From NCBI GenBank assembly GCA_017625465.1, contig JAGAKS010000017.1:156946-220945 (forward strand): a DNA stretch of 64,000 nt, read 5' to 3'. The DNA is from Clostridia bacterium (GTDB taxonomy: Bacteria > Bacillota > Clostridia > TANB77 > CAG-508). The notes below the pieces were generated by a model. It saw only the letters and a list, made by a program, of their open reading frames with translations, had not been told where the DNA came from and ran no database searches. Both the position numbers and the translations under genes were made by a program. The stretch's first letter is position 1; the number at the start of each line of letters is the position of its first letter. This document shows, piece by piece, positions 2,895-20,546 of this stretch.

Positions 2895-2910
2895 CTCATA
2901 ACCCGAAGGT
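2895..2910. repeat. left copy of 16-bp direct repeat CTCATAACCCGAAGGT (att core)
   Basis: identical 16-mer recurs at 20531-20546; the two copies bracket an integrase-bearing region. Confidence 0.65.
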
Positions 2911-2939
2911 CGTAAGTTCGAGTCTTACCCCCGCAACCA
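2895..2939 (+). tRNA. 3' half of initiator tRNA-fMet (anticodon CAU) - fragment only, no 5' half; forms the left att repeat
   Basis: CTCATAACCCGAAGG = anticodon loop (C-U-CAU-A-A) with three C of the anticodon stem; then GTAAG-TTCGAGT-CTTAC T-arm, CCCCGCA acceptor 3' strand, discriminator A and CCA; near-identical to E. coli tRNA-fMet 3' half. Upstream sequence cannot pair as D-arm/acceptor 5' strand. Confidence 0.75.
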
Positions 2940-2950
2940 AGAAATTAACT

Positions 2951-3132: not shown

Positions 3133-4335
3133 TTAGTTTTTATCTACTAATAAATTTTGCAAGACTATACCTGCACTTCTATTATGAGAAGCAAGTGGAT
3201 GGACATAGAAATTAAATGTTGTGCTAATTTGAGCATGTCCTAATCTTGCAGCTACAACTGCTACATCAACATTTTGTGAAATAAGTAGAGTAGCATTTGT
3301 ATGTCTGATACCATGAAAATTCAAATAAGGTAGTCCTATCTTTTGAACAAATTTAACAAACCATTTACTTACTGTATCAGGATGCATAGGTTTGCCATTA
3401 TCTTGTATAAATAATCTATTAGATTCTTCCCAGAATTCACCACAAAGATCTTTTTGACTATCATACCATATTTTATATTCCTCTAGTATTTCGATGACAG
3501 AATCAGGTATAGAAATATGTCTAAAAGAACTAGGTGTTTTAGGTGGTTTTGTATAAACTCCTGTACTTGCTAAATATTGACTTGATTTGTTTACAGTTAT
3601 TTCTTTATTCTTGAAATCAATATTTTCCCAGTCAAGTCCCATTAATTCACCTAATCTAACTCCAGTAAATACTGTAAGAATAATAGCAACCTTATACTTC
3701 ATCTCATTCTCTGCAAGCTCATTTAATCCTTTTAGAAGAACTTTGCATTGTTCATCATCATAGAATCTACGTTGAGCTTTTGGTGCTCTTGGTGGTTGAA
3801 CTCTTTCAGCGGGATTATAAGGTATAAGTTGCCAATATACAGCTTTGTGTAGCATTGCACTTATTAATCTATGATGTTCTAGAATAGTCTTTTTTGATAA
3901 TGGTTTTAAAGTACGTTCACCATTGTTTTTAGCAAGTCTTTTTATTTGTGTATCTTGTTCTAGCATATCATATAATTTCATAAGATTTGTAGGTTTGATT
4001 TTTTCTAAAGTAAAAGAACCTAAGTAAGGAAGAATTCTGCTCTCTAACATTCCAACATATCTGTTATAAGTAGATGGTGCTAAATCTTTTGTGCCATAGT
4101 TTACTTGCCATATATGATAGAATTCTTCAAAAGTTACTGGTTTTCCTTCAGGTACTAATCCACGATTAGCTTCTGTAACAAACTCTGCAAGTGCAATCTC
4201 AGCGTCTTTACGAGTTCCGTGAATAGTTTTTGTTCTTCTAGCTCTAGATCCATCAAGATTTTTACCAGTAGATACTACTAACCTATAAGTATTTTCACCT
4301 CTTTTTTCAATACTCCCAGCCATTGCCTTTTTCAC
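3133..4335 (-). CDS. int: tyrosine site-specific recombinase (phage-type integrase) with N-terminal arm-binding domain
   Basis: C-terminal HGIRHT...LGHAQISTTFNFYVH (R..H-x-x-R...Y catalytic pattern), N-terminal AP2-like arm DNA-binding region, 400 aa. Confidence 0.9.
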   Translation of the reverse strand: MKKAMAGSIEKRGENTYRLVVSTGKNLDGSRARRTKTIHGTRKDAEIALAEFVTEANRGLVPEGKPVTFEEFYHIWQVNYGTKDLAPSTYNRYVGMLESRILPYLGSFTLEKIKPTNLMKLYDMLEQDTQIKRLAKNNGERTLKPLSKKTILEHHRLISAMLHKAVYWQLIPYNPAERVQPPRAPKAQRRFYDDEQCKVLLKGLNELAENEMKYKVAIILTVFTGVRLGELMGLDWENIDFKNKEITVNKSSQYLASTGVYTKPPKTPSSFRHISIPDSVIEILEEYKIWYDSQKDLCGEFWEESNRLFIQDNGKPMHPDTVSKWFVKFVQKIGLPYLNFHGIRHTNATLLISQNVDVAVVAARLGHAQISTTFNFYVHPLASHNRSAGIVLQNLLVDKN

Positions 4336-4596
4336 CTCCTTTCAGGCATAACCATGGGTGAGAGTTTCATATTTAATTGTGATTATTATATATCAAAATA
4401 TTGATGATTACTAGTGGATTTTGCTTATTTTTCAAGTATTACAAAGATTACAGTATAATTCATAAAAGAACTTATATAAAACAATAAAAAACTAGATAAA
4501 ATGTAATATTAGATTAAAATGTCGTAAAAAGTCGAATTATATCAGAAAAAAGATATTACAAATGTTTACTCATATATGGATAAAAAAGGAAAAATA

Positions 4597-4605
4597 TGTT
4601 ATAAT
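4597..4605 (+). promoter_or_regulatory. extended -10 promoter element (TGTTATAAT) upstream of the KAP NTPase gene
   Basis: TGnTATAAT match, weak -35 TGGATA 17 bp upstream. Confidence 0.4.
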
Positions 4606-4620
4606 TTCTGTATCACAAAA

Positions 4621-4655
4621 GAGAAAGTAGAAAATTACCTACTTTCTCTTTTTGC
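4621..4655 (+). promoter_or_regulatory. leader hairpin plus T-run between promoter and start codon (terminator/attenuator-like)
   Basis: gagaaagtag-aaaattac-ctactttctc perfect 10-bp stem followed by TTTTT, located 10 bp before the RBS GGAG. Confidence 0.4.
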
Positions 4656-4670
4656 TTATAGGAGATGAAA

Positions 4671-7600
4671 ATGAAAAAGTTATTATTGAAAATAAAAAGA
4701 ATTGCACTTATGGAGATAAGTTTTAAGAAAAGAAAACAAAATAACAAAATAGAGGGAAATAACAACTCTGTTGTTTATATAAATAAACCTATAAATGAAA
4801 TAAATAATGATGTGCTAGGAATAAATACACACTTAAATAGAATCGACAAAGCAATAGATAAAGGTGCAAATGTTATAGGAATAATAGGAGATTATGGTAC
4901 AGGTAAATCAAGCCTAATAGAATTATTAAAAAATAAGTATGAAAAACCTATTATGATAAATATGTGGAACTATTCTAATGCAAATAGTAATGAAGATGAT
5001 GGAATAAATGGTCTTACAAGAAATTTTTTATTTCAAATGGCTATAGGTGAAGATACAAAATTTGCTCAATATGTAAATAAAAAATTAAGTAAAAATTATG
5101 GGATTTTATCTATAATTAAATCTGGAGAAAAATTTTGGCGTAATTTTATACCTGCAATTGTTTTTTGGATAATATATAAAATTGGAGAAACATTTCCAAA
5201 TAGTATATATGATACAGCTGCATACAAATCACTTAATAATGCATATGGTGCAAACTTTTTTCCAGACGGATTATGGCAAAATATAATATATGTTTTGTAT
5301 GGATTTGTAGCTAATTTTTATATAATATTTGCTTTAGTAGCTTTGTTCTTTGCAATAAAAGCAATTCTAAAAACAACAATAGTTTTTTCTTTATGGGATT
5401 CTCAAGGGAAAAGATGTCCAGATGCAACTGATATATATGATATATATCTAGAAGTTGCTCAAAGAATATTAAAAGGTAAAAATAAAAGAATTGTCATAAT
5501 TGAAGATTTGGATAGAATTAATGATATAGAAAAAATAAAAGAATTTATAAAGGAAATCTATAGATTTAATAATGTATTGCCTGAAAACTTAAAAAATAAA
5601 CTAGTGTATGTGATTGAAGTTAAATCAGAAGAGGCTATGAGTATTATAGAAAACCAAATAGAAGAAGTGAATATAGACAAATTATTTAAAAAAGTTTTTT
5701 ATTTTAAAGTATTATTAAATCCAATTCATAATATGGATTGCGATGAAATAGTTTTGGATTTGCTTAAGAATCAAGAAGAAAGGATAAATAAACAATTAGG
5801 CATAAAACTAGGGAATACACTACCTGAAGAATTTGCGTATATTGTCAAGGGAACAAATTTAACAATTAGAGATTTGAAAGATAGATTAAATAGAAGTTTC
5901 GAAATATATGAAAATCTAGATGAGAAAGGGAAAAAGACGGGTGCAATTATTGATTTTAGAAAATGTACAATTGTAGCTTATTTAGAAAGCAAATATCCAC
6001 AAAGTATTAGAAAGTTTGTAACTGAAGAAGAATACTTCAAAAATCTTCTAAATAATTCATATGTCATTAAGCAAATGCCAAATGTGTCATTAACAGATAA
6101 AAAAGATAGAATAAAAAAACTAATAGATATAAAAATAGATGATGATTTTAAGGATGAAGTAGCTAATTTAATAGCAAATGATCTAATTAATGATGATTTC
6201 AGACTGTATTTTTATAATTACCCTAAAGGTCAGAAAATAAAAAGCAGTGAAGAAGAATATGTAGAACGATTACTATTATATCCAAGCAAAAATGAAGAAG
6301 TAGATGAAGAGAAAATTAAAAAAGCGCTAAAGGAAGATAGCAACATAGTTTACAAATGTTTGGATAGAAGAAGAAAAGAAAATTTATTGTTTGATAGAAC
6401 AATATTTGAAAGTGAGACTTTGTATTCAATAGCAATAAAATTCTTCTATGATAAAGTACAGGAATTATTACAAAAAGATATAAAATGGAAATCTGAATAT
6501 AGAAATGAATCAGGAAGAGTTTTAAATAAAATATCTAAATATAATGTGGATTCAAAGAATCTTTTTGAAGAATATTCAAAGTTTTTAACTAAAGAATTTA
6601 AGCAACTGTCTGAAAAAGAGTTAATAGGTGCAAGGGCAGAGATAATAAAAAATTCCAATGAGTATATTACATGTTTTAAGTCTATATTTATAAATGATGA
6701 TATTAGTTTAATATCGAAAGAAGAAATAGATTTAATAGAAGATATTGGCATTGTAATGCAATTGGTAAATACAGATGCAATAGATGAAAAAAATGCAGAA
6801 TATATAATAAATATACTAAATGCTAATAAATTATCAGATGAGAATTTTATATGTGCAAAAGAAATATATTATTCTATGGATGAAACCGTAGAATTGGAAA
6901 GCATTGCTCATAGTTTATTAGATTTTCTAATGATAAATAATAAAACTGATGATCTATTATTCAAAAATGTTGTAAACAATTATTTGAGTACTGATTCAGA
7001 AATAGAAGAAATAGAGATAGTTAAGTATTTAAATTTATTAGATATTAATGATATTACAGAAGAATATCTAAATAATATTGATTTATTGAAGATAACTGAA
7101 GAATTGTCAGAAGATATACTAAATAAGTTAAAGGAAAATGGATTAAAACATACATTATGGATAAATTTAATTATACAAGATAGATGTAATGAAGTAGACT
7201 TAAGTGAAAATTATGAAGAAAATTTAAAAATTATTTCAGAAATATCTGATGTATTAGATGATAGTATAATAAATCTAAGAAAAGAATTAATAAGTAAAAA
7301 TTTATCAAATGAATATAAAGAACTGTTTTTTGATGATTATCCTATAATTACACCTGAAGAATTGGGAATGTTAGATACTATTGGAGGTATTATTAATTTA
7401 ACGAATTTTAATAAAGTTGATATTAATAATTTAAATGGTATTGTTAATAAAATTAATAATCTATATTCAACAGGAGAAGAATTAATAGAAATTATAGGTG
7501 TATTTGATAAGAAAGAAAATAGTATTTCAGATATAAATATAACAAATAAATTTTTTGATATATTTGAATGGAATAAAGACCTAGTAAAAATGCTAACAGA

Positions 7601-8351
7601 AGATCAGAGAAGTTATATATATAATGTTTTAAAGAACAATTTAAGACTGACTGACTATAACTATGAAATAAAATTTTCACATAAAATAGGTTATATTATA
7701 ACTGAAATAGATAATGAATTATATATAAAGGCTAAAAATGATATAAATTGTTATGAACAGTATATGGAATTAGTAAATCAATTGGATATACCAACAGAAC
7801 AAACTATAACCAATATAATAAACTTTAATAGCGAATATAAACTTAATATTAATATAACGAATTATTTATGGAGCAAAGGATATTATACAGAAAGTATAAT
7901 AGGAAGAGTTCTTTTTGAAAATAGTATTAATGTTAAGTTGGCCAAGGAATCATTAAACCTATATGCAGAGGCATATAATAAAACAGAAAAAGCACATGAT
8001 ATAATGGCTAGTAATGATGAATTTATACAGTTAATGATGGATAATGAGAATTATAAAGAATTTAAGACAAAGAAAAAATTAGAACCTTTCTATAGATTAA
8101 GACAGCCTATAACATTTGTAAAACATGTTTTTGAAACTTTAGAAGAAACAGACATATATGAATATTTAAAATGCAGTTGGCATTTAGATACAGAAGAAGA
8201 TAGTGAAAAATTTCAAAGATTGATTTGTGAAGATAGGTATATAAAGTTTATAGAAAGTTCTGAAATGTATAATATTGTTTGGGAGAAATTATGGAAAACA
8301 TCTCATAAAGGATTATTAACAAAGGCAAGAAATAAAAGATACAATAATTAA
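4671..8351 (+). CDS. KAP-family P-loop NTPase with transmembrane insert and ~800-aa C-terminal extension (1226 aa)
   Basis: Walker A GDYGTGKSS; two to four hydrophobic helices (IPAIVFWIIY..., IYVLYGFVANFYIIFALVALFFAIKAIL) inserted before the Walker B RIVIIEDLDR (hhhhDDLDR KAP signature); start at second ATG (4671) with RBS spacing. Confidence 0.75.
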   Translation: MKKLLLKIKRIALMEISFKKRKQNNKIEGNNNSVVYINKPINEINNDVLGINTHLNRIDKAIDKGANVIGIIGDYGTGKSSLIELLKNKYEKPIMINMWNYSNANSNEDDGINGLTRNFLFQMAIGEDTKFAQYVNKKLSKNYGILSIIKSGEKFWRNFIPAIVFWIIYKIGETFPNSIYDTAAYKSLNNAYGANFFPDGLWQNIIYVLYGFVANFYIIFALVALFFAIKAILKTTIVFSLWDSQGKRCPDATDIYDIYLEVAQRILKGKNKRIVIIEDLDRINDIEKIKEFIKEIYRFNNVLPENLKNKLVYVIEVKSEEAMSIIENQIEEVNIDKLFKKVFYFKVLLNPIHNMDCDEIVLDLLKNQEERINKQLGIKLGNTLPEEFAYIVKGTNLTIRDLKDRLNRSFEIYENLDEKGKKTGAIIDFRKCTIVAYLESKYPQSIRKFVTEEEYFKNLLNNSYVIKQMPNVSLTDKKDRIKKLIDIKIDDDFKDEVANLIANDLINDDFRLYFYNYPKGQKIKSSEEEYVERLLLYPSKNEEVDEEKIKKALKEDSNIVYKCLDRRRKENLLFDRTIFESETLYSIAIKFFYDKVQELLQKDIKWKSEYRNESGRVLNKISKYNVDSKNLFEEYSKFLTKEFKQLSEKELIGARAEIIKNSNEYITCFKSIFINDDISLISKEEIDLIEDIGIVMQLVNTDAIDEKNAEYIINILNANKLSDENFICAKEIYYSMDETVELESIAHSLLDFLMINNKTDDLLFKNVVNNYLSTDSEIEEIEIVKYLNLLDINDITEEYLNNIDLLKITEELSEDILNKLKENGLKHTLWINLIIQDRCNEVDLSENYEENLKIISEISDVLDDSIINLRKELISKNLSNEYKELFFDDYPIITPEELGMLDTIGGIINLTNFNKVDINNLNGIVNKINNLYSTGEELIEIIGVFDKKENSISDINITNKFFDIFEWNKDLVKMLTEDQRSYIYNVLKNNLRLTDYNYEIKFSHKIGYIITEIDNELYIKAKNDINCYEQYMELVNQLDIPTEQTITNIINFNSEYKLNINITNYLWSKGYYTESIIGRVLFENSINVKLAKESLNLYAEAYNKTEKAHDIMASNDEFIQLMMDNENYKEFKTKKKLEPFYRLRQPITFVKHVFETLEETDIYEYLKCSWHLDTEEDSEKFQRLICEDRYIKFIESSEMYNIVWEKLWKTSHKGLLTKARNKRYNN

Positions 8352-8354
8352 AAA

Positions 8355-8392
8355 TAAGTAGAGTCCATTTGGATTCTACTTATTTTTTGCTC
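8355..8392. terminator. bidirectional terminator between convergent KAP NTPase gene and 292-aa gene
   Basis: aagtagagtcc/ggattctactt imperfect inverted repeat flanked by A/T runs. Confidence 0.5.
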
Positions 8393-9254
8393 TATTTTTA
8401 TAAACATTTGCTTTATTCTTACATTGAGGAGTATGATATTCTGCTTTAGGATTAACAGCAAGAAAAGCTTTATTACAGAATTTACATATCTTTAATAGAT
8501 TAATATCTTGTGCTACTGTTTTAGCAAAGTAATAATCGATATATTGTTTTAAACAGGTGATTTGAAATTCAACAACTAAAGTTTCTTTTCTAGATAAACT
8601 CATTTTAATATTGTTAATTTCAAATTGTTTTAATAATTCATCTATATTGTAATTATCTTCATTAGAAATATTATTTAATAAACTATATAAGTATTTAGCA
8701 TATTGAATAAACATATCTAGAGGTTCACAATATAAATTAGATCCTGCTAATAATTTATTTACATCATATAACATATATTTTTCCATGGCAGGAGTTTCAG
8801 CTAATTTAATTGCGGCATTTATTAATTCCTTAATCTGACTATCATCACAAGTAGGGAAGAACAATTTAAAATATTTCTTTCTATCTACTACTGTTGTTAA
8901 ATCAGAATTTCCAATATAGTTATAATCTTTTAAAACTATTTTATTATCTAAGAAAAAGTATTTATTTAAAGGTAAATCGTTTATTAATCCTAATGTAGAA
9001 TATTTATTTACAAAGTCTAAAACACTTTTTTCTATATCATTTTCGTTATAAAAAGCTAATTTACCAATATTTAATAAATCTATTAAAATAGATTCTTCAA
9101 AATCTTTTTCTATATCAATTAATGGAGCACCACTAGAGTGCTTTTTATTTATACTATCTGAAACTATATATTTAGTTTTGCTTATTTCTTTAATTTCATA
9201 TTTAGCAAATTTAAAAATATTTTTTCCTTCAAATGCACTAAAATTAAGGCTCAT
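8376..9254 (-). CDS. hypothetical protein (292 aa) with C-terminal Cys/His cluster, convergent partner of KAP NTPase
   Basis: long ORF with strong RBS (AGGAGG); C-terminal CKFCNKAF...HTPQCKNKANVYKNRAK suggests zinc-ribbon; no other motif recognised. Confidence 0.5.
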   Translation of the reverse strand: MSLNFSAFEGKNIFKFAKYEIKEISKTKYIVSDSINKKHSSGAPLIDIEKDFEESILIDLLNIGKLAFYNENDIEKSVLDFVNKYSTLGLINDLPLNKYFFLDNKIVLKDYNYIGNSDLTTVVDRKKYFKLFFPTCDDSQIKELINAAIKLAETPAMEKYMLYDVNKLLAGSNLYCEPLDMFIQYAKYLYSLLNNISNEDNYNIDELLKQFEINNIKMSLSRKETLVVEFQITCLKQYIDYYFAKTVAQDINLLKICKFCNKAFLAVNPKAEYHTPQCKNKANVYKNRAKNK

Positions 9255-9509
9255 ACGAATACCTCCTAAAAAATTATAAAAAATTTACAGTAAGCCCTTG
9301 ACAAACATAATAGATTACTGATATATTTTAACCAGAGTAAGTGATTATTACACAAAATCAATTACAGAAGTAAAAACCAGTCAAGACCTGACTTTTAAGT
9401 AAAATTACAGCATAAAACAAGTAATTGATTACTTACAATAATAGCTTACCACACAAAAGATAAGTTGTCAACAAAGAAGATAAAATTTCAAAAGAAAGGA
9501 GGAATGTAT

Positions 9510-9707
9510 ATGGAATTTCAGGAAGTCAAAAGAATAACTCTAACAATGAGAGAAGCAGCAGACTATTTAGGAATATCATATTGGTTAATTAATCAATTGG
9601 TTAAGAAAAAACAAATACCATATTCAAAAGTAGGCGGCAAGTTCTTGTTTAGAGTAAAAGCACTGGATGAATATCTATGTGAAAAAGAACGAGCTTCAGT
9701 AAGATAG
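9510..9707 (+). CDS. xis: excisionase / AlpA-MerR-type HTH DNA-binding protein
   Basis: LTMREAADYLGIS...LVKKKQIPYSKVGGKFLF helix-turn-helix of the excisionase (HTH_17) type; start at ATG after AAGGAGG. Confidence 0.65.
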   Translation: MEFQEVKRITLTMREAADYLGISYWLINQLVKKKQIPYSKVGGKFLFRVKALDEYLCEKERASVR

Positions 9708-13346: not shown

Positions 13347-14147
13347 ATGGGAACAAATATATATGATGAAAGAAATACAGTAAATGACCTTACAGGTTCA
13401 GAATGGAAATTCAGCACAAAAACAGTTATTAATAAGGCTTATCCTATAAATATGCAACATAAGTTAAGATCGGAACATGGAGGTCAAAAACCACCAGAAT
13501 TATGTGCTGATATCATAAAAATTTTTACTAAAAAGGGAAATTTAATTTTAGATCCTTTTATGGGAGTGGGTGGTACACTACTTGGCGCAAGTCTTACAGA
13601 TAGAAATGCTATAGGAATAGATATAACGAAAAGATGGATAGATATTTATAAAGAAGTTAGTAAATTAGAAAATTTAAAGGAACAAAAAACAATACTAGGT
13701 GATTCTCTAAAAAAATTAGATAAAATAGAAAATGATTCAGTAGATTTTATACTAACAGATGTACCATATTGGAATATCGATACATTAAAGCAAACAAGGA
13801 ACAAGAAAATAAAGCAATCTAAACTTAATAATTTTGACAATGATACGCAAAATCAGACAAAAGAAGAATGGCTACAGCAAATGTATGATATAATATATAA
13901 AGCATCTAGAAAATTAAAAATTGGAAAATACATGGCTATATTTATAGGAGATATGTATAGAGATAAAGAATATCATTTTTTATCTGCTGAACTAGCTATG
14001 AAAATAAATGAGGCAGAAGATTTGAAGATGAAATCCAATATTATTTGGGTAGACAACAGCAAATCATTACATGTTTTTGGATATCCTAGAGCATATGTAC
14101 CATCGATGATACATCAAAATATATTAGTTTTTAGAAGAGAGGAATAA
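13347..14147 (+). CDS. DNA methyltransferase, N4-cytosine/N6-adenine family (variant DVPY motif IV)
   Basis: HGGQKPPEL followed by AdoMet motif DPFMGVGGT, then TDVPYW in place of canonical (D/S/N)PPY. Confidence 0.7.
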   Translation: MGTNIYDERNTVNDLTGSEWKFSTKTVINKAYPINMQHKLRSEHGGQKPPELCADIIKIFTKKGNLILDPFMGVGGTLLGASLTDRNAIGIDITKRWIDIYKEVSKLENLKEQKTILGDSLKKLDKIENDSVDFILTDVPYWNIDTLKQTRNKKIKQSKLNNFDNDTQNQTKEEWLQQMYDIIYKASRKLKIGKYMAIFIGDMYRDKEYHFLSAELAMKINEAEDLKMKSNIIWVDNSKSLHVFGYPRAYVPSMIHQNILVFRREE

Positions 14148-14150
14148 AAT

Positions 14151-16049
14151 ATGAGTAGTTTATTACCTAAGAATGAATATAAATTTAAAAATTTAGAAAA
14201 AGAAGAATATGAAAATGGTAAGGTATTTTATTTTTATTGTGATAACTTACAAGAAGGAATGCATATTTTGTTTTGGCTAGAAGAGTATAATAAAGAGATG
14301 AAATTAATAAAAAGAGGGTATAATGGTATATCTAATTATATATCTATTTATGATATAAATGGAGAAAAATATACAATTATAATTTGCTCTTTTTATCATA
14401 ATGGTGAATTGCCACGATTAGTTAGACAAATAATATATAAAATAGATAAACCTGATGTAGTAATATATTCACAAGATGAGGATAAAATAGTATGTGGAAT
14501 TGAAAATACAGAGACTGGATTTGTTGGAAATGCGACATGGCAAAGACATGGAAGAATAATGAATTTTTTAGGTAATGATTTTCCTTTTGTATTTTTTGCT
14601 TATTATTCTAAAAAAGATATTTCACAAGATACAATCAGAAAACCAAGCCCATTACTAGTTTTATCATTTTTTTCATTATCTATCGAATATTCAACACCTG
14701 CAATATTATCATTATATGATCACGAAGATATAACACAAAATATAATAAATGATGATGGCTCAAAAATGATTGATACAAGAAAAGAATCTTTGAGCTATAT
14801 ATTAAGCTTGATGCTGCATGGACAGGACGCAGATGAAACACAAGAAAAATTAAAAAAATGTTTTTACGATATGAAATATTATTATAAAGAAGAAATAAAA
14901 AGAGTTAAGAATAATGAATTACCTTTAAAAACATTAGAATTATTGAGAAAAGATAATTTTGAAGATGAAATCGTAGAAAAAATCATAAAGAAAGATAAAA
15001 ATTATCCATTGTTCTTTAAAGATATATCTCCATGGAACCCAGTATCAGCAAAAGAATTTAAAATAAATAATGAAAAAGTTGGAATAGGTGAATATATAAA
15101 AAATCAATTATATGATATTGATTTTTATCAATTATCACCTAAATGTCCAGTTGGAATTACTTTTGACACAAATAAATTGGTTACTAGATTAAATGAAATA
15201 AAAAATACAGGTGATTATTTTTGGGAAGATTCTTTAAGATTAGATATTCCAACTATAATTATATTATTAAAGCTTACTAAAAAAGGAAAATTAGCATTAC
15301 CAGATCCATACAATGGTAGAATTCCAGCTTTTTATGAGCTTTATAAACAATCTTTTGGAGAAATTAATTGTATTATATATTTAATGGATCATTCAAGCGA
15401 AAATGAATATGATCCAGCTTATGCAAAAAATATGAAAATATATAAGTCGATTAATGATTATGCTACAATTTTTCTAGATAGAGATTTAAATGTACTTGAT
15501 AAAAATTGCGATAAAGCAGTAAAGGACTCTAGAAAAAAATATGAAGAAGAAATAACAGAAGATAATGTTACATGTTTTTTTGAAACAATACTCAAAATGG
15601 AAAACATAAAGCCTTCATTTATAAATCCACCATGTGGTTCTTGGTCTGATTTTAAATTATATCCTATAAATAAATTTTTCTATTTAAAAAGAGATGATGA
15701 TAGGCCAGATATTGCATATTATATTCCTAAAAATCAACAACTATACTTTAATGATGGCATATATTATGTAGGAGAAAGTAAAGCAAACTATTCATCATTT
15801 AAAAATGATGAAAAATTCAATTTTGAAATAGAGAGAATTAATAGATTAATTGAAATTATAGACAAAGAAATAGGTATAGATTTAAAATATAAATCATTTA
15901 TATTATTTAAAGGAATTGCAGAAGTGGGAATAGAAATAGTAAATGAAGTACGTGAAGGTAAGAAAAAACATGTGGATTATGTTGTGGTTATTGAAGAAGA
16001 CAATGAGAATATAGAATATAATATTAGGATGATTATATTAGAGGTATAA
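14151..16049 (+). CDS. hypothetical 632-aa protein, putative restriction endonuclease (possible PD-(D/E)xK: KPD-x8-DEDK)
   Basis: tightly packed between two methyltransferases (4-nt and 1-nt gaps); KPDVVIYSQDEDKIV resembles PD...(D/E)xK; otherwise no motif. Confidence 0.35.
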   Translation: MSSLLPKNEYKFKNLEKEEYENGKVFYFYCDNLQEGMHILFWLEEYNKEMKLIKRGYNGISNYISIYDINGEKYTIIICSFYHNGELPRLVRQIIYKIDKPDVVIYSQDEDKIVCGIENTETGFVGNATWQRHGRIMNFLGNDFPFVFFAYYSKKDISQDTIRKPSPLLVLSFFSLSIEYSTPAILSLYDHEDITQNIINDDGSKMIDTRKESLSYILSLMLHGQDADETQEKLKKCFYDMKYYYKEEIKRVKNNELPLKTLELLRKDNFEDEIVEKIIKKDKNYPLFFKDISPWNPVSAKEFKINNEKVGIGEYIKNQLYDIDFYQLSPKCPVGITFDTNKLVTRLNEIKNTGDYFWEDSLRLDIPTIIILLKLTKKGKLALPDPYNGRIPAFYELYKQSFGEINCIIYLMDHSSENEYDPAYAKNMKIYKSINDYATIFLDRDLNVLDKNCDKAVKDSRKKYEEEITEDNVTCFFETILKMENIKPSFINPPCGSWSDFKLYPINKFFYLKRDDDRPDIAYYIPKNQQLYFNDGIYYVGESKANYSSFKNDEKFNFEIERINRLIEIIDKEIGIDLKYKSFILFKGIAEVGIEIVNEVREGKKKHVDYVVVIEEDNENIEYNIRMIILEV

Positions 16050-16050
16050 T

Positions 16051-17073
16051 ATGAAATATATAGGTAATAAATCTAGGTTAATTGGATTCATTGAAGAGTG
16101 CTTAAAAGATTTTAATATTAATTATAATAATTGTAAGGTTTATGACTTGTTTTCAGGAACAGGAAGTGTTAGTGAATTTTTTTTGAAAAATGATTGTAAA
16201 GTGTTATCATGCGATAATATGAATTATGCTATAGCAGAACAATATAGAAGACTATATTTTAGAAAAGAGCCTATATTTAATGAATTGAAAAATATAATTG
16301 GATATGAAAAATTAGATGATATATTAAAGTATTTGAATAGTTTAGAAGGAAATGAAGGATATTTTTTTGAAAATTTCTGTGAAGAAGGAAAATATAAAAG
16401 AAGATTTTTTAGTAGCTCAAATGCAAAAAAAATAGATGCTATAAGAAATAAAATAGACGAATGGAAAGATATATTGCCTTATGAAAAATATATTTTTTTA
16501 GTTGGTATTTTAATGAATTCAGCAGATTTTGTTTCAAATACTGCTGGTACATATGGTGCATATTTAAAAATATGGAGAAGTATGGCGCTAAAAGAATTAA
16601 AACTTGAAAAACCAGAGTTTATTAATAGTGGAGAAATCAAGATGTATATCAGTGATGTTATTGATTTTGTAAAAGAACAAAACAAAGCAGATATTGTATA
16701 TCTTGATCCACCATATAATACAAGACAATATCCTGCATATTTTAGTGTTCTTGAAAGCATTGTTGTAAATGATAATCAAGTTTTAAATGGAAAAACGGGA
16801 TTAAGAAATTATGAGAAACAAAAATCTAAATTTTCAATAAAAAAAGATGTAAAAGAGGAATTTGAAAAGCTTATTAACAATATTAAATCAGATTATATTG
16901 TGATGAGTTATAGTACAGAGGGAATATTAGATTCAAATTTTATAATGGAAGTGTTAAAAAGAAAAGGTAAGACAAAGATGTATAATACATCTTATAGAAG
17001 ATTTAAAACTAATGCATGGACAGAAAAGAATACAAATCTAAAAGAAATATTATTTATATGTAAAGTATTATAG
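16051..17073 (+). CDS. Dam-like (D12 class) N6-adenine DNA methyltransferase
   Basis: N-terminal YIGNKSRL, AdoMet motif DLFSGTGSV, catalytic DPPY. Confidence 0.8.
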   Translation: MKYIGNKSRLIGFIEECLKDFNINYNNCKVYDLFSGTGSVSEFFLKNDCKVLSCDNMNYAIAEQYRRLYFRKEPIFNELKNIIGYEKLDDILKYLNSLEGNEGYFFENFCEEGKYKRRFFSSSNAKKIDAIRNKIDEWKDILPYEKYIFLVGILMNSADFVSNTAGTYGAYLKIWRSMALKELKLEKPEFINSGEIKMYISDVIDFVKEQNKADIVYLDPPYNTRQYPAYFSVLESIVVNDNQVLNGKTGLRNYEKQKSKFSIKKDVKEEFEKLINNIKSDYIVMSYSTEGILDSNFIMEVLKRKGKTKMYNTSYRRFKTNAWTEKNTNLKEILFICKVL

Positions 17074-17082
17074 GAGGAATAT

Positions 17083-18357
17083 ATGGAAGAATTAGATACA
17101 AAGAAAGTATTTACAGATACAAAAGATTATCCATTAAGCATAATTAAAGAAATGTTTGATGACGGAGATATAATCCCACAACCAGATTATCAAAGAGATT
17201 ATATTATGGATGAGAAAAAAGCATCAAAATTAATTGAATCTGTTTTATTACAAATACCAATTCCTACGGTTTATCTTTGTGAAGAAAGTGATGGTACACT
17301 ATCTATAATAGATGGACAACAAAGACTAACTTCATTTGTGAAATTTCTAAAAAATGAATTTGCTTTAAAAAACTTAGAAGAATATACCGATTTTAATGGA
17401 AAAAGATTTGCAGATTTAGATAAGGCAGTTCAAAGAACAATAAAAAATACAAGTATTCATTCAATAGTTATAAAAAAAGAATCACAAGAACTAAAATATG
17501 AAATATTTGCAAGATTAAATCAAGGTTCTACAAGTTTAAAGCCACAAGAATTAAGAAATTGTATATATAGAGGTAGCTTTAATAATATGCTAGAAGATAT
17601 TTCAGAAAGCAATAAGACACTAGCTTTTCTTATAGGAACTGAAAATAAGAGAAAAAACTATCAGGAAACAATATTAAGATATTTTGCATTAAAGAATTTT
17701 CAAGAATATAGCAGTTCAATATCTAAAACATTAAACTTGTATATGGAAAAACATCAAAATGACTCAAAAGAAGATATTGATCAATTTAAGAAAGAATTTA
17801 ATTCAAATATAGATATTATTAAACAAGTGCTTGGAGAAGATGCATTTTTTGGATATGATAGAACAAAAGGAAAAATGATGAATAAGTTTAGTGGCTCTAC
17901 ATACGATTCAATTATTATTGGATTTTCTATGTTTAACAATCATGATATCATGGTGCATTCAGATGAAATAAGACAAAGAATAAAAGAAATGAAAATGAAT
18001 GATCCAGAATATCAAGATTATACATATGCTGCAACAGGTTCAAAAGTTAGAGTTATTGGAAGAATTATGAAAGTATATGAATTACTTTCTCAAATTATTG
18101 GTAAAAAAGGTGATTATGGAGTAGAAAGAACATTTTCCAAAGAAACAAAGGAAGACCTATGGCATGAAGGCTATATTTGTTCATATTGCGGAAATGAAAT
18201 ATTAAGTATGGATGATGCAGAAGTTGATCATATAGAGGCATTTGTATCTGGAGGAGAGACAATTAAAGAAAATGCACAATTGCTTCATAGACATTGTAAT
18301 AGAGAAAAACATGATAATGACGTAGAGTTTGAAAATGAAGAAGAATTAGAAAACTAA
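17083..18357 (+). CDS. DUF262 (ParB-like, DGQQR) + C-terminal HNH nuclease; GmrSD-like type IV restriction-type protein
   Basis: IIDGQQRLTSF DUF262 hallmark; C-terminal CSYCG...VDHIEAF...HRHCNREKHD HNH motif. Confidence 0.75.
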   Translation: MEELDTKKVFTDTKDYPLSIIKEMFDDGDIIPQPDYQRDYIMDEKKASKLIESVLLQIPIPTVYLCEESDGTLSIIDGQQRLTSFVKFLKNEFALKNLEEYTDFNGKRFADLDKAVQRTIKNTSIHSIVIKKESQELKYEIFARLNQGSTSLKPQELRNCIYRGSFNNMLEDISESNKTLAFLIGTENKRKNYQETILRYFALKNFQEYSSSISKTLNLYMEKHQNDSKEDIDQFKKEFNSNIDIIKQVLGEDAFFGYDRTKGKMMNKFSGSTYDSIIIGFSMFNNHDIMVHSDEIRQRIKEMKMNDPEYQDYTYAATGSKVRVIGRIMKVYELLSQIIGKKGDYGVERTFSKETKEDLWHEGYICSYCGNEILSMDDAEVDHIEAFVSGGETIKENAQLLHRHCNREKHDNDVEFENEEELEN

Positions 18358-18365
18358 ATTGAAAC

Positions 18366-18417
18366 AAAAGCAAAATAGGTTTGGAAACAGACATTTCCTA
18401 CATTATTTTGCTTTTTT
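18366..18417 (+). terminator. rho-independent terminator after the 4-gene operon
   Basis: aagcaaaata...tattttgctt stem followed by TTTTTTT. Confidence 0.5.
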
Positions 18418-18476
18418 TATACAAATTTCGACAAATTTCTTGAAAAAAATATTGTAAAATATGAAAGGAGGTAAAA

Positions 18477-19976
18477 ATGAAATCTATTAATCTTAAGGCA
18501 TTAGTAAATATATATTTAGCAAATAACAGGGAAATTCCTAAAGAATATCAACAATTTATAGGAGATGACTATAGTTTATCAATAAAGAAGAATGAAATAG
18601 AACCACTTGTGCAACTTGTAGAAAATATAGAGAAAATTGATATTCAAGGAAATATGAATAAATATAATCATTTTTATATAGGGTATCAAATTCCACAGAT
18701 TGGTAAAGAATTTGATTTATTAAGATTTGATGAACAAAACATATTAAATATTGAGTATAAAAGAGAAATTAAAGATTTAGAAAAAATAAAAAAACAATTA
18801 ATAAGAAATAAGTACTATCTAAGTTTTTTAAATAGAAACAGTATTTTAATAGGATATATACAAGATATGGACAAATTATTTCTATTAAAGAATGAAGAAT
18901 TAGAGGAAATATCATATATAAAGTTATTAGAAATTTTGAATGATTGCTTAACTTGTGAAGATATAAATCTTAATACTTTATTTAAAGCATCAAATTATTT
19001 AATTTCGCCATTTAATAAAACCAATGAATTTATGAATGGTCAGTATTTTTTAACAAAGCAACAAGAAGAAATAAAAAATAAAATGATTGAAGATATGCAT
19101 CTAGGAGAAAAAACTTTTTTGATTCAAGGAGATGCTGGAACAGGGAAAACATTATTAATATATGATTTGGCAAAACAATTACTTGAAAATGATAAGCAAG
19201 TTGCTATTATACATTGTGGACAGCTTAATCAAGGACATGAAAAATTAAAGGCTATATATAATTGGCATATATTTTCGATAAGAGATTATTATATTGTAAC
19301 GAATAATACATTTGATGTCATATTTATAGATGAAATACAAAGAATAAAAATGGACCAATTTGAAGAAATAATGGAATATATTAGGAAAAATAAAAATATA
19401 GTAATTTGCAGTGGAGATAAAAAACAAATTTTAAAAGCAACGGAAGGAGGTATATTAGAGAAGCTAGAAAGCCAAACTTTGAACAAATATACATTATCAA
19501 AAAAAATACGAACTAATAAGGAACTGGCTAATTTTATAAAGGTAGTTTTAGATTTAAATAAAAAACAAGAATTCAATCTGAATACGGATAATATAAATAT
19601 AGTATATTGTAATAATTATTTAGAAGCAAATAGATATATTTCTTCCAAAAATAGTTATAGTTTTATATCATATACGCCTACTTTGTATCCAGAAAATGGT
19701 TTAGTTGGATTTGAAATAACTTGCGAAAACAAAAATACGGTTGGAAATCCCCACAAAGTAATTGGACAAGAATTTGAAAATGTAGGAGTAATTATAGATA
19801 AGCATTTTTATTATGATGAGAATAATAAATTAAGAGCTATGCAAATGTATAATAATGTATATTCGCCTAAAAATATGTTATATCAGGCTTTAACTAGAGT
19901 AATTGAGACATTAGAAATAATTGTTGTAGAAAATATAGAAATATTTAATATTTTAATAGAGCTATTCAAAAAATAA
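18477..19976 (+). CDS. NERD/PD-(D/E)xK-like N-terminal domain fused to DUF2075/SF1-like P-loop ATPase
   Basis: N-terminal FDLLRFDEQNILNIEYK (D...ExK); Walker A GDAGTGKT, Walker B VIFIDEIQ (DEAQ-like box). Confidence 0.5.
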   Translation: MKSINLKALVNIYLANNREIPKEYQQFIGDDYSLSIKKNEIEPLVQLVENIEKIDIQGNMNKYNHFYIGYQIPQIGKEFDLLRFDEQNILNIEYKREIKDLEKIKKQLIRNKYYLSFLNRNSILIGYIQDMDKLFLLKNEELEEISYIKLLEILNDCLTCEDINLNTLFKASNYLISPFNKTNEFMNGQYFLTKQQEEIKNKMIEDMHLGEKTFLIQGDAGTGKTLLIYDLAKQLLENDKQVAIIHCGQLNQGHEKLKAIYNWHIFSIRDYYIVTNNTFDVIFIDEIQRIKMDQFEEIMEYIRKNKNIVICSGDKKQILKATEGGILEKLESQTLNKYTLSKKIRTNKELANFIKVVLDLNKKQEFNLNTDNINIVYCNNYLEANRYISSKNSYSFISYTPTLYPENGLVGFEITCENKNTVGNPHKVIGQEFENVGVIIDKHFYYDENNKLRAMQMYNNVYSPKNMLYQALTRVIETLEIIVVENIEIFNILIELFKK

Positions 19977-20530: not shown

Positions 20531-20546
20531 CTCATAACCCGAAGGT
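20531..20546. repeat. right copy of 16-bp direct repeat CTCATAACCCGAAGGT (att core)
   Basis: exact match to 2895-2910; flanking sequence differs on both sides. Confidence 0.65.

What the first reader, a model, noticed from the sequence alone, without database searches (positions are those of the whole stretch)
4671..9254. Giant (1226 aa) membrane-inserted KAP NTPase with ~800-aa uncharacterised C-terminal extension, convergent with a Cys-cluster 292-aa gene, as first cargo after the integrase
The Walker A box (GDYGTGKSS), the hydrophobic insert and the IIEDLDR Walker B box define a KAP-family NTPase. This family is enriched in defense islands but has no established mechanism. This one is about twice the usual length, with a long acidic/Asn-Lys-rich helical C-terminal region. 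It is paired tail-to-tail with a 292-aa protein ending in a zinc-ribbon-like motif, and the two share a terminator. This could be a two-gene abortive-infection-type module that has not been described.
Basis: partly seen in the sequence, partly recalled or inferred. Interest (0 to 1): 0.72.

Follow-up and report, generated by a model that had tools for sequence, protein, structure and literature searches.

The report
Tmn-like membrane NTPase defence cassette
The giant gene is a stand-alone, membrane-anchored KAP/YobI-type NTPase of the recently characterised Tmn kind of antiphage protein, sitting in a swappable defence-gene slot of a small mobile element in a gut Clostridia bacterium. The neighbouring 292-aa gene is part of the element's backbone and is not its partner.

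Summary
The sequence observation holds: a 1226-aa ORF (w4671-8351) with Walker A and B boxes and two hydrophobic helices between them, convergent with a 292-aa Cys-motif ORF across a shared hairpin terminator, next to a tyrosine integrase.

The NTPase passes Pfam YobI-ATPase (37.8 bits, cutoff 27) and, marginally, KAP_NTPase. About 1200 aa is the normal length for its family. Its C-terminal ~800 aa is a confidently predicted all-alpha solenoid with no enzymatic domain. This is the architecture published for Tmn, a single-gene antiphage NTPase.

The two-gene module is refuted. The 292-aa gene is a backbone gene of a ~17.65-kb tRNA-Met-type integrative mobilisable element (w2895-20546). Among 36 sibling loci, the slot between it and the integrase holds 21 different cargo sets, including Gabija, Hachiman, Qat, Ppl and another KAP NTPase. 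DNA homology to siblings breaks exactly around the NTPase gene. Eighteen distant NTPase relatives lack any 292-like neighbour.

Caveats: PADLOC's Tmn model does not hit this clade (no positive control was available), and function is inferred.

Verdict: new member of a known kind, of modest interest. The hotspot could serve as bait for finding new defence genes.

The parts
2895..2941 (+). Left end of the mobile element. It comprises the 16-bp att core repeat (2895-2910, CTCATAACCCGAAGGT) and the element-borne 3' half of a tRNA-Met(CAT) gene.
   Evidence: The 16-mer is repeated at 20531. Homology to all sibling elements starts at w2892-2895. An intact tRNA-Met(CAT) lies at the integrase end in L005, L006 and L022, but the window has no tRNA. 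The sequence was read.
3133..4335 (-). Tyrosine integrase of the element
   Evidence: Pfam Phage_integrase 5.6e-27 and Phage_int_SAM_3 1.5e-13. It is conserved at the slot border in sibling elements.
4511..8376 (+). Swapped cargo cassette, made of the NTPase gene and its 5' region. It is the only stretch not shared with sibling elements that are 91-96% identical.
   Evidence: In blastn, L005/L006 match w2894-4510 and w8380-13046, and L011-16 match w2895-4609 and w8377-9435.
4577..4605 (+). Promoter-like site (TGGATA-17-TATAAT with a TG extension). The TATAAT box is invariant in related loci.
   Evidence: The region is shared with the Gabija-carrying siblings up to w4609. This is a consensus match only, so function is inferred.
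4606..4662 (+). Conserved 5' leader hairpin (inner 13-14-bp stem at 4617-4652, then a U-run). The outer stem pairs with part of the AGGAG ribosome-binding site.
   Evidence: RNA fold -23.1 kcal/mol, z -5.6. The hairpin is present in L001, L019, L020, L021 and L068 with one compensatory GC<->AU pair. L004/L022 have an unrelated hairpin at the same place, and distant relatives have none.
4671..8351 (+). KAP/YobI-type membrane-inserted P-loop NTPase, 1226 aa, with a Tmn-like architecture
4887..4913 (+). Walker A motif, GDYGTGKSS
   Evidence: G78, G80, K81 and S83 are invariant in 25 relatives.
5127..5396 (+). Two hydrophobic helices (residues about 155-180 and 207-244) inserted between Walker A and Walker B, forming a membrane hairpin
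   Evidence: Kyte-Doolittle hydropathy of the protein and of the family average. Long helices appear at these positions in the AlphaFold model.
5490..5516 (+). Walker B motif, IVIIEDLDR
   Evidence: D281, L282, D283 and R284 are invariant.
5862..8348 (+). All-alpha C-terminal arm of about 830 aa, solenoid-like. Residues about 729-928 are the most variable stretch among close relatives, making this the putative trigger-sensing surface.
   Evidence: In the AlphaFold2 model the region has pLDDT around 90 and only helices. Foldseek finds only generic HEAT/ARM/TPR solenoids. No Pfam or NCBIfam domain is found.
8350..8387 (.). Bidirectional terminator-like palindrome with a 17-bp stem, overlapping both stop codons
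8376..9254 (-). 292-aa backbone gene of the element, unrelated to the cargo. It belongs to an uncharacterised family with a C-terminal zinc-ribbon and a basic tail (codons at w8424-8489).
   Evidence: It always lies beside the Xis/replication/relaxase module and next to variable cargo. There are 224 family representatives. The consensus is CKHC..FCSxxCRN. Pfam zf-CGNR hits 3 of 48 relatives.
9465..9707 (+). Excisionase-like HTH gene, transcribed divergently from the 292-aa gene. It is the start of the element's Xis / replisome-organiser / DnaC-like / TnpV / relaxase backbone, which runs to about 12483.
   Evidence: Pfam HTH_17 3.1e-11 and Tn916-Xis 1.5e-5. The remaining backbone genes are annotated.
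20531..20546 (+). Right-end copy of the 16-bp att core repeat

Best explanation
w4671-8351 encodes a self-contained, single-gene defence protein of the KAP/YobI (Tmn-like) kind.

[quoted passage not shown] It is followed by a cytosolic alpha-solenoid arm of about 830 residues with no enzymatic domain. The gene is a one-gene cassette in a variable defence-gene slot. The slot lies between the tyrosine integrase and a conserved 292-aa backbone gene of a ~17.65-kb integrative mobilisable element (w2895-20546) of tRNA-Met type, in an uncultured gut Clostridia bacterium.

Proposed working (inferred by analogy with Tmn): The solenoid arm, especially the hypervariable stretch around residues 729-928, binds a phage protein. 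Binding stimulates NTP hydrolysis in an oligomeric membrane assembly. That in turn causes a membrane or ion-homeostasis collapse, such as Mg2+ export, ATP depletion and plasmolysis, which arrests phage replication. A conserved terminator-like 5' leader hairpin probably keeps basal expression low.

The 292-aa protein (inferred): It is most likely a zinc-ribbon nucleic-acid-binding protein serving the element, for example in regulation or maintenance. It is not part of the defence function.
For: Family and architecture:
- Pfam YobI-ATPase 2.1e-9, 37.8 bits (cutoff 27), and KAP_NTPase 21.6 bits (cutoff 20) on the N-terminal domain.
- Of 21 relatives, 14 hit YobI-ATPase (best 8.7e-18) and 16 hit KAP_NTPase (best 3.3e-11).
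- Exactly two hydrophobic segments lie between the Walker motifs, and they are conserved across the family.
- The AlphaFold2 model has mean pLDDT 84.6 and an all-helical C-terminus. Foldseek matches the N-terminal domain to BrxC, RdrA and Orc1 ATPases at probability 1.0, and the C-terminus only to generic HEAT/ARM/TPR solenoids, including the Avs4 sensor arm.
- The published Tmn description matches: two TM helices inside the P-loop domain, about 1270 aa, a variable alpha-helical solenoid arm acting as sensor, and no conserved operon partner.

Single-gene cassette:
- Homology breakpoints fall at w4510-4609 and w8377-8380.
- There are 21 cargo configurations in 36 bracketed slots.
- None of 18 distant NTPase loci has a 292/DUF6076-like neighbour, and no other neighbour is conserved.

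Defence context:
- Sibling cargo includes GajA 2.8e-184, GajB 1.6e-120, HamB 1.4e-75, QatA 6e-118, Ppl 4e-44 and another KAP NTPase.
- The element carries a second cargo block with two methylases, a GmrSD-HNH protein and a Schlafen-type helicase.

Sensor arm:
- The N-terminus is 35% identical among distant members and the C-terminus 25%.
- Among close relatives, identity falls to 44-60% at residues 729-928 while the core stays at 70-87%.

Leader hairpin.
Against: - No match to any PADLOC Tmn model for this protein, its N-terminal domain or 29 relatives, even at E<=10. Only PifA and QatA give weak hits. By the operational definition used in the Tmn preprint (PADLOC HMM, at least 50% coverage, E<1e-10) it is not Tmn. 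No genuine Tmn was available as a positive control.
- The Pfam YobI match covers only profile positions 13-239 of 363.
- No direct sequence or structural superposition with an experimentally studied Tmn could be made. The afdb50 library was unavailable, and no solved relative exists in the PDB.
- Every functional step is analogy: antiphage activity, trigger binding by the arm, oligomerisation and the membrane effect. The Tmn mechanism itself rests on a preprint with an 11.6 A map.
- The E. faecalis KAP defence is reported as non-abortive and has an unknown effector region, so mechanisms within the superfamily may differ.
Confidence: 0.6

Rival explanations
1. The NTPase and the convergent 292-aa zinc-ribbon protein form an obligate two-gene abortive-infection module.
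For: In all 9 loci of the >=44%-identity NTPase clade, the NTPase is followed by a convergent 292-like or DUF6076-like gene 12-74 nt away. The two genes share a terminator hairpin.
Against: - The 292-aa gene neighbours 21 different cargo sets, and only 1 of 36 bracketed slots holds this NTPase, plus 3 on partial contigs.
- The homology breakpoint falls exactly at the 292-aa gene's stop codon.
- None of 18 distant NTPase loci has such a neighbour.
- Divergence of the two genes is discordant.
- The adjacency in the close clade is explained by all of them occupying the same slot of related elements, each with the homologous integrase upstream.
Confidence: 0.04
2. The NTPase works for the mobile element against other mobile DNA, for example by excluding competing conjugative elements or plasmids, or by stabilising the element through an addiction-like effect. 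Antiphage defence would not be its main role.
For: - It is carried next to the integrase of a mobilisable element.
- Its N-terminus gives its best PADLOC hit to PifA, an F-plasmid exclusion protein.
- Wu et al. argue that plasmid-borne tmn and Gabija may also serve conflicts between mobile elements.
Against: The same slot holds classic antiphage systems (Gabija, Hachiman, Qat, Ppl). The experimentally studied relatives Tmn and EF_KAP act against phages. The PifA similarity covers only about 54-70 N-terminal residues.
Confidence: 0.15
3. It is a defence NTPase of the same superfamily, but its output differs from Tmn's Mg2+ export and plasmolysis. Examples would be PifA-like membrane depolarisation and leakage (abortive infection), or NTP-dependent remodelling of a bound phage complex by the solenoid arm.
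For: The clade is too divergent to hit the PADLOC Tmn model. L082, the other giant KAP protein in the same slot, shares only the N-terminal ~430 residues, which shows that arms are exchanged on a common engine. The EF_KAP defence is reported as non-abortive with an unknown C-terminal effector.
Against: The arm shows no recognisable effector domain. The overall layout is the one described for Tmn.
Confidence: 0.2
4. It is a non-defence membrane NTPase with a housekeeping or signalling role that happens to lie on the element.
For: KAP NTPases were originally proposed as regulators of membrane-associated complexes (cited). There are no functional data for this clade.
Against: The gene lies in an exchangeable cassette inside a mobile-element defence hotspot. 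Its distribution across Clostridia MAGs is patchy, and a tyrosine integrase is its most frequent neighbour. It has a hypervariable arm segment.
Confidence: 0.03

Closest known systems
Tmn (transmembrane NTPase; E. coli plasmid and chromosomal defence; Wu et al., bioRxiv 10.1101/2022.08.21.504612 and 10.64898/2026.03.01.708804)
   Same: - YobI-type P-loop NTPase with two TM helices inserted between Walker A and Walker B.
- About 1200-1270 aa.
- No identifiable accessory domain.
- A long alpha-helical solenoid arm that is the most variable part.
- Acts as a single gene without a conserved operon partner.
- Carried on mobile elements, often near Gabija-type systems.
   Different: It is not detected by the PADLOC Tmn HMM. 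It comes from gut Clostridia and is very AT-rich. It rides in the integrase-proximal slot of a mobilisable element, not in a plasmid leading region. The close clade has a conserved 5' leader hairpin. Oligomeric state, trigger and output are untested.
YobI family (Pfam PF20693), named after the B. subtilis membrane protein YobI. From my own knowledge YobI is about 1200 aa; this was not checked here.
   Same: The Pfam model is passed (37.8 bits, cutoff 27). The layout and size class are the same.
   Different: Only profile positions 13-239 of 363 are matched. Many relatives score as well or better on the KAP_NTPase model, so the clade sits between the two Pfam models.
PifA (F plasmid, excludes phage T7) and classical KAP NTPases (PF07693)
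   Same: KAP-type N-terminal region and Walker A neighbourhood. PADLOC PifA scores 4.9e-7 on the window protein and up to 3.6e-11 in relatives. Both are defence or exclusion functions carried on mobile elements.
   Different: The PifA match covers only about 54-70 residues. PifA is about 720 aa and, according to the Tmn preprint, lacks the TM helices.
EF_KAP and gut-metagenome KAP NTPase fusions (PMC13552941)
   Same: Firmicute or gut KAP P-loop NTPases with TM helices, fused to C-terminal regions of unknown fold. They are experimentally antiphage, both domains are required, and they were found next to a recombinase used as bait.
   Different: EF_KAP has a C-terminal region of about 322 aa, and the bait there is a small serine recombinase. 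Here the arm is about 830 aa and the neighbouring recombinase is a tyrosine integrase. Sequence relatedness to those proteins was not tested.
Defence hotspots of mobile elements (P4/P2 hotspots, pipolins, E. coli defence islands)
   Same: A fixed slot between conserved backbone genes, filled by many alternative defence systems with sharp homology breakpoints.
   Different: The carrier here is a tRNA-Met-type integrative mobilisable element of gut Clostridia, and the slot is bounded by the integrase and an uncharacterised 292-aa zinc-ribbon gene. I found no description of this particular hotspot, but the literature check was limited.

Membership tests
KAP P-loop NTPase (Pfam PF07693) | Match to the family model at or above Pfam's gathering score | tested here: met
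   The N-terminal domain scores 21.6-22.6 bits against a cutoff of 20, which is marginal. Of 21 relatives, 16 match, best 3.3e-11. The full-length protein gives no hit.
KAP P-loop NTPase (Pfam PF07693) | [quoted passage not shown] | tested here: met
   Walker A is at residue 75 and Walker B at 276. Two hydrophobic segments (155-180 and 207-244) lie between them and are conserved in the family average. They form long helices in the model. Membrane insertion itself is inferred.
YobI-like P-loop NTPase (Pfam PF20693) | Match to the family model at or above the gathering score | tested here: met
   37.4-37.8 bits against a cutoff of 27, E 2e-9, covering profile positions 13-239 of 363. Of 21 relatives, 14 match, best 8.7e-18.
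YobI-like P-loop NTPase (Pfam PF20693) | No readily identifiable accessory domain, and a long alpha-helical C-terminal region | tested here: met
   No Pfam or NCBIfam hit in the C-terminal ~810 aa. The region is all-helical at pLDDT around 90.
Tmn defence system | Hit to the PADLOC Tmn HMM with at least 50% coverage and E<1e-10, the definition used in the Tmn preprint | tested here: not met
   No Tmn model is reported for the protein, its N-terminal domain or 29 relatives, even at E<=10. Caveat: I could not obtain a genuine Tmn to confirm that the library copy recognises one.
Tmn defence system | Solenoid-like distal arm of ARM/HEAT-like repeats that determines specificity | tested here: inconclusive
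   The arm is all-alpha, and its only structural matches are weak ones to HEAT/ARM/TPR solenoids (best E 7e-4, TM<0.2). A hypervariable segment lies at residues 729-928. Repeats were not counted, and no superposition on a Tmn model was possible.
Tmn defence system | Self-contained gene without a conserved operon partner | tested here: met
   No neighbour is conserved across 27 full-length loci. The swapped cassette contains only this gene.
Tmn defence system | Decameric membrane complex, trigger-stimulated ATPase, Mg2+ export and plasmolysis, and an antiphage phenotype | not testable with these tools
   These need biochemistry and phage assays.
PifA | Full-length similarity to the PifA model | tested here: not met
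   Only residues 40-93 match profile positions 8-65 of 720.
DUF6076 (Pfam PF19553), considered for the 292-aa protein | Match to the family model, or profile-level homology to DUF6076 proteins occupying the same position | tested here: inconclusive
   The 292-aa protein and 48 relatives give no Pfam DUF6076 hit. hhalign against the DUF6076-like proteins of L004, L019, L020 and L022 gives probability 1.2% with a shallow alignment. With a deep alignment it gives 43%, E 2.5e-4, confined to the zinc-ribbon.
zf-CGNR zinc finger (Pfam PF11706), considered for the C-terminus of the 292-aa protein | Match to the family model | tested here: inconclusive
   The window protein gives no hit. Of 48 relatives, 3 match, best 1.6e-4. 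The family consensus CKHC-x13-15-FCSxxCRNxxNVYKSR resembles the motif. In the window protein the third ligand is His.
Integrative mobilisable element with a defence hotspot | Integrase, excisionase and relaxase without a conjugation apparatus; flanking att repeats; a variable slot with sharp homology breakpoints filled by defence systems | tested here: met
   The 16-bp direct repeat lies at w2895 and w20531. There are 21 cargo sets in 36 slots, including Gabija, Hachiman, Qat and Ppl. Mobility itself was not tested.

The most novel reading that the evidence does not exclude
This Clostridial clade could be a distinct, currently undetectable lineage of KAP/YobI defence NTPases, given that it gets no PADLOC Tmn hit and is annotated only as 'hypothetical protein'. 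It could have its own trigger specificity and possibly its own membrane output, and its expression could be gated by a conserved 5' attenuator-like hairpin. Separately, the slot between the integrase and the 292-aa gene of this tRNA-Met-type element family could be an unmined defence hotspot in gut Clostridia. Its cargo proteins with no annotation (for example L053 908 aa, L051 643 aa and L079 569 aa) could be new defence genes. The conserved 292-aa zinc-ribbon protein could control expression or exchange of whichever cargo is present.
Probability: 0.2. Interest if true: 0.55.

Novelty: new member of a known kind. Interest (0 to 1): 0.3.

Why it matters
- **Annotation.** This protein and more than 100 full-length relatives in gut Clostridia are unnamed in public databases. 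They are missed by the defence-system library tested here, although they have the Tmn/YobI architecture. Defence inventories of gut Firmicutes are therefore likely to undercount this class.
- **Discovery.** The conserved pair of tyrosine integrase and 292-aa gene brackets a slot that holds at least 21 different cargo sets. Several of those have no recognisable domains. The pair is a ready-made bait for finding new defence genes in an under-studied group of bacteria, analogous to the serine-recombinase bait of PMC13552941.
- **Mechanism.** A Gram-positive, AT-rich, divergent Tmn-like protein would test whether the mechanism proposed for E. coli Tmn (sensor arm, then ATPase, then ion export) is general.

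None of this changes current concepts, so the interest is modest.

Tried and rejected
**1. Positive control for the PADLOC Tmn model and direct comparison with a genuine Tmn (failed)**
- tblastn of the N-terminal domain against plasmids found nothing.
- The reference plasmid CP083423 / NZ_CP083423 is not in the collections.
- The Tmn preprint has no supplements held.
- I searched for tmn next to Gabija on E. coli plasmids, starting from a GajA query. No large P-loop NTPase gene turned up in the three regions inspected.

**2. Libraries without a useful result**
- Foldseek against AFDB: the library was unavailable.
- A PDB sequence profile search with the NTPase family gave nothing meaningful, best E 0.055.
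- NCBIfam on the full-length protein, the N-terminal domain and the C-terminal part gave only generic P-loop noise.

**3. Structure of the 292-aa protein**
The AlphaFold2 model was poor (pLDDT 42.8) because the allowed alignment was shallow. I did not run a fold search on it. A PDB profile search with the deep alignment also found nothing.

**4. Homology of the 292-aa family with DUF6076**
Not demonstrated. I treat the two as positional analogues that share a zinc-ribbon.

**5. Cassette-flanking recombination repeats**
Only a 10-nt inverted match was found in AT-rich DNA, probably chance.

**6. A conserved partner other than the 292-aa gene in distant NTPase loci**
None found.

**7. Literature on DUF6076**
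No papers found.

Full report
**Observation**

The large ORF runs from 4665 to 8351 on the + strand. The ATG at 4671 is the better start, because the AGGAG at 4660-4664 abuts the first ATG and lies 6 nt ahead of the second. The exact 1226-aa product is in NCBI as MBO5398353.1, 'hypothetical protein', from an uncultured Clostridia MAG.

Numbering from the 4665 ATG, Walker A (GDYGTGKSS) is at residues 75-83 and Walker B (IVIIEDLDR) at 276-284. The only hydrophobic segments, about 155-180 and 207-244, lie between them. They are conserved in a family-averaged hydropathy profile of 89 sequences.

The 292-aa ORF (8376-9254, - strand) is convergent and 24 nt away. A 17-bp-stem palindrome at 8350-8387 overlaps both stop codons and is flanked by T-runs. 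A tyrosine integrase (3133-4335, - strand; Pfam 5.6e-27) lies directly upstream.

**What the large protein is**

Scanned whole, the protein misses Pfam's KAP model. Scanned alone, the N-terminal ~420 residues pass YobI-ATPase PF20693 (37.8 bits, cutoff 27) and marginally KAP_NTPase PF07693 (21.6 bits, cutoff 20). Across 21 N-terminal domains of relatives, 14 hit YobI-ATPase (best 8.7e-18) and 16 hit KAP_NTPase (best 3.3e-11).

The protein belongs to a family of more than 110 full-length relatives of 1170-1430 aa, with identity down to about 26% at 97-98% coverage. So its length is normal for its kind. Relatives occur almost entirely in gut Clostridia MAGs.

An AlphaFold2 model of residues 29-1228 is confident (mean pLDDT 84.6, and about 90 over the C-terminal part). 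It shows an alpha/beta P-loop core interrupted by two long helices, followed by about 830 residues that are purely helical. Foldseek against the PDB finds no close relative. The N-terminal domain matches BrxC, RdrA and Orc1-type ATPases at probability 1.0. The C-terminal part matches only generic HEAT/ARM/TPR solenoids, including the sensor arm of Avs4, at very low TM-scores. The arm has no Pfam, NCBIfam or PDB sequence match.

Conservation is higher in the N-terminal ~530 residues than in the arm. Among close relatives, differences concentrate at residues about 729-928, which fall to 44-60% identity while the core stays at 70-87%.

**Comparison with the literature**

[quoted passage not shown] Tmn has two TM helices embedded in the P-loop domain, a length of about 1270 aa, no identifiable accessory domain and no conserved operon architecture. 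Its variable alpha-helical C-terminal region forms a solenoid arm that binds the phage trigger and sets specificity. The proposed mechanism is a decameric membrane complex that raises ATP turnover and exports Mg2+, causing plasmolysis (bioRxiv 10.64898/2026.03.01.708804). Tmn was earlier called a KAP NTPase and shown to synergise with Gabija (10.1101/2022.08.21.504612). KAP NTPases fused to unknown C-terminal regions from Enterococcus and gut metagenomes have also been shown to be antiphage (PMC13552941).

**The caveat on membership**

The Tmn preprint defines Tmn by PADLOC's Tmn HMM. In the PADLOC library available here, no Tmn model appears for this protein, its N-terminal domain or 29 relatives, even at E<=10. 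Only PifA (N-terminal ~54-70 residues) and QatA give weak hits.

I could not obtain a genuine Tmn sequence as a positive control. I therefore file the protein as a YobI/KAP-family, Tmn-like NTPase and not as Tmn in the strict sense.

**The partner-gene hypothesis**

Homologues of the 292-aa protein at 72-95% identity always lie next to the same module: an HTH_17 excisionase-like gene, a replisome organiser, an IstB/DnaC-like ATPase, TnpV and a relaxase. What lies between them and the integrase differs:

| Loci | Content between the 292-aa gene and the integrase |
|---|---|
| L005-7 | AAA_21 ATPase, metallo-beta-lactamase-fold protein and others |
| L011-16 | OLD-TOPRIM ATPase, UvrD helicase and a DpnII-type enzyme |
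| L017 | protein kinase and two unknown proteins |

A metagenome scan added 49 loci. In the 36 loci where both the 292-aa gene and the integrase bracket the slot, the slot is 2.3-7.2 kb long and holds 21 different cargo configurations. Only one of these is this NTPase, plus three more on partial contigs.

Representative cargo is annotated as GajA (2.8e-184), GajB (1.6e-120), HamB (1.4e-75), QatA (6e-118), Ppl (4e-44), a PADLOC candidate system, a subtilase, a PNP-domain giant protein and a different 1243-aa KAP NTPase. That KAP protein shares only its N-terminal ~430 residues with this family.

DNA comparison with sibling elements that are 91-96% identical places the homology breakpoints at w4510-4609 and w8377-8380. 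The swapped cassette therefore contains the NTPase gene and nothing else.

In the other direction, I examined 27 full-length NTPase loci. A 292-like or DUF6076-like convergent gene follows the NTPase only in the >=44%-identity clade, whose members all occupy the same slot of related elements. None of the 18 distant loci has one, and no other neighbour is conserved.

Divergence of the two genes is also discordant. In L021 the NTPase is 45% identical while the 292-aa gene scores E 6e-176. In L001 the NTPase is 94% identical and the partner 72%.

**The 292-aa protein**

It belongs to a real family of 224 representatives at 50% clustering, with full-length relatives down to about 25% identity. The conserved C-terminus is CKHC-x13-15-FCSxxCRNxxNVYKSR, a zinc-ribbon with a basic tail. 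In the window protein the ligands are C256, C259, H273 and C277.

Three of 48 relatives hit Pfam zf-CGNR. Homology to the DUF6076 proteins that occupy the same position in related elements is suggestive only (probability 43%, limited to the zinc-ribbon). The structure prediction failed (pLDDT 42.8).

My inference is that it is a nucleic-acid-binding backbone protein of the element. Its function is unknown.

**The element**

A 16-bp direct repeat, CTCATAACCCGAAGGT, lies at w2895 and w20531. w2895-2941 is the 3' half of a tRNA-Met(CAT) gene carried by the element. Sibling loci have an intact tRNA-Met at the integrase end, but the window has no tRNA. Here the element (w2895-20546, about 17.65 kb) seems to sit at a secondary site between a YgjV-like gene and a HAD hydrolase gene.

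It has an integrase, an excisionase-like gene, replication genes and a relaxase, but no conjugation apparatus, which makes it an integrative mobilisable element. A second cargo block (w13347-19976) encodes two DNA methylases, a 632-aa unknown protein, a GmrSD-N+HNH protein and a Schlafen-type helicase.

**Expression signals**

Upstream of the NTPase lie a promoter-like site with an extended -10 box (4577-4605) and a strong hairpin with a U-run (4606-4662; -23.1 kcal/mol, z -5.6). The outer stem of the hairpin pairs with part of the ribosome-binding site.

The hairpin and the TATAAT box are conserved in the close clade, with one compensatory base-pair change. L004 and L022 have an unrelated hairpin at the same place, and distant relatives have none. 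I read this as an attenuator-like or stabilising leader. That is an inference.

**Mechanism and verdict**

Shown:
- A single-gene cassette in a defence hotspot.
- A KAP/YobI-type NTPase with an intradomain membrane hairpin and a solenoid arm that has a hypervariable segment.

Inferred by analogy with Tmn:
- The arm senses a phage protein.
- NTP hydrolysis in an oligomeric membrane complex leads to a membrane or ion-homeostasis collapse that stops the phage.

The main uncertainties are how close this clade really is to Tmn and which output it uses. Overall it is a new member of a known kind. The unannotated Clostridial clade and the hotspot bracketed by the integrase and the 292-aa gene are nonetheless useful leads.

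Noticed in passing
window 4606-4662 (also L001, L019, L020, L021 and L068 upstream of their NTPase genes): A conserved terminator-like 5' leader hairpin with a U-run lies between an invariant TATAAT box and the RBS of the NTPase gene (-23.1 kcal/mol, z -5.6). It shows one compensatory GC<->AU pair across loci. L004/L022 have an unrelated hairpin at the same place, and distant relatives have none. It may be an attenuator or an mRNA-stabilising leader.
   Followed up: partly
window 2895-2941 and 20531-20546: The element carries the 3' half of a tRNA-Met(CAT) gene and is flanked by a 16-bp direct repeat, but the window has no tRNA gene. Sibling elements sit at an intact tRNA-Met. Here the element appears to be inserted at a non-tRNA secondary site between a YgjV-like gene and a HAD hydrolase gene.
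   Followed up: partly
window 13347-19976: There is a second cargo block at the far end of the same element. It holds an N6/N4 DNA methylase, a 632-aa protein with no Pfam hit, a D12-class adenine methylase, a GmrSD_N+HNH protein (type IV restriction-like) and a Schlafen-group-3-type helicase/ATPase.
   Followed up: partly
L053:8890-11616 (908 aa), L051:6691-8622 (643 aa), L079:8896-10605 (569 aa): These large cargo proteins occupy the same slot between the integrase and the 292-aa gene in sibling elements and have no Pfam or PADLOC match. By position they are candidate new defence genes.
   Followed up: no
L082:8899-12630 (also L065): A different giant KAP NTPase (1243 aa; Pfam KAP 4e-24, PifA 1e-17) occupies the same slot as a single gene. 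It is homologous to the window's NTPase only over the N-terminal ~430 residues, so it has the same engine and a different arm.
   Followed up: partly
L061:8887-12885 (also L054): A 1332-aa cargo protein with an N-terminal purine-nucleoside-phosphorylase-superfamily domain (a PADLOC 'Effector' model, 1e-12) is paired with a 595-aa KAP-like/PDC-S49 protein in the same slot.
   Followed up: no
L011-L016, about 4.7 kb downstream of the 292-aa gene: In the Gabija-carrying sibling elements, the integrase is split into three ORFs (114, 176 and 63-75 aa) in all six loci. This suggests an immobilised element that is nevertheless widespread (24 contigs read).
   Followed up: no
window 4577-4609 compared with L011-L016: The Gabija-carrying siblings share the backbone up to w4609, which includes the promoter-like box upstream of the cargo. 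A backbone promoter may therefore drive whichever cassette is inserted.
   Followed up: no
P0220 compared with the other 292-aa homologues (alignment A3): The 292-aa family is mosaic. P0220 follows the 67%-identity group in its N-terminal half and the window group in its C-terminal half, which suggests recombination within this backbone gene.
   Followed up: no
L040 (Methanobrevibacter MAG) and L029 (Treponemataceae MAG): Full-length relatives of the NTPase at 25-28% identity occur on contigs binned to an archaeon and a spirochaete. This could be horizontal transfer within the gut or a binning error.
   Followed up: no
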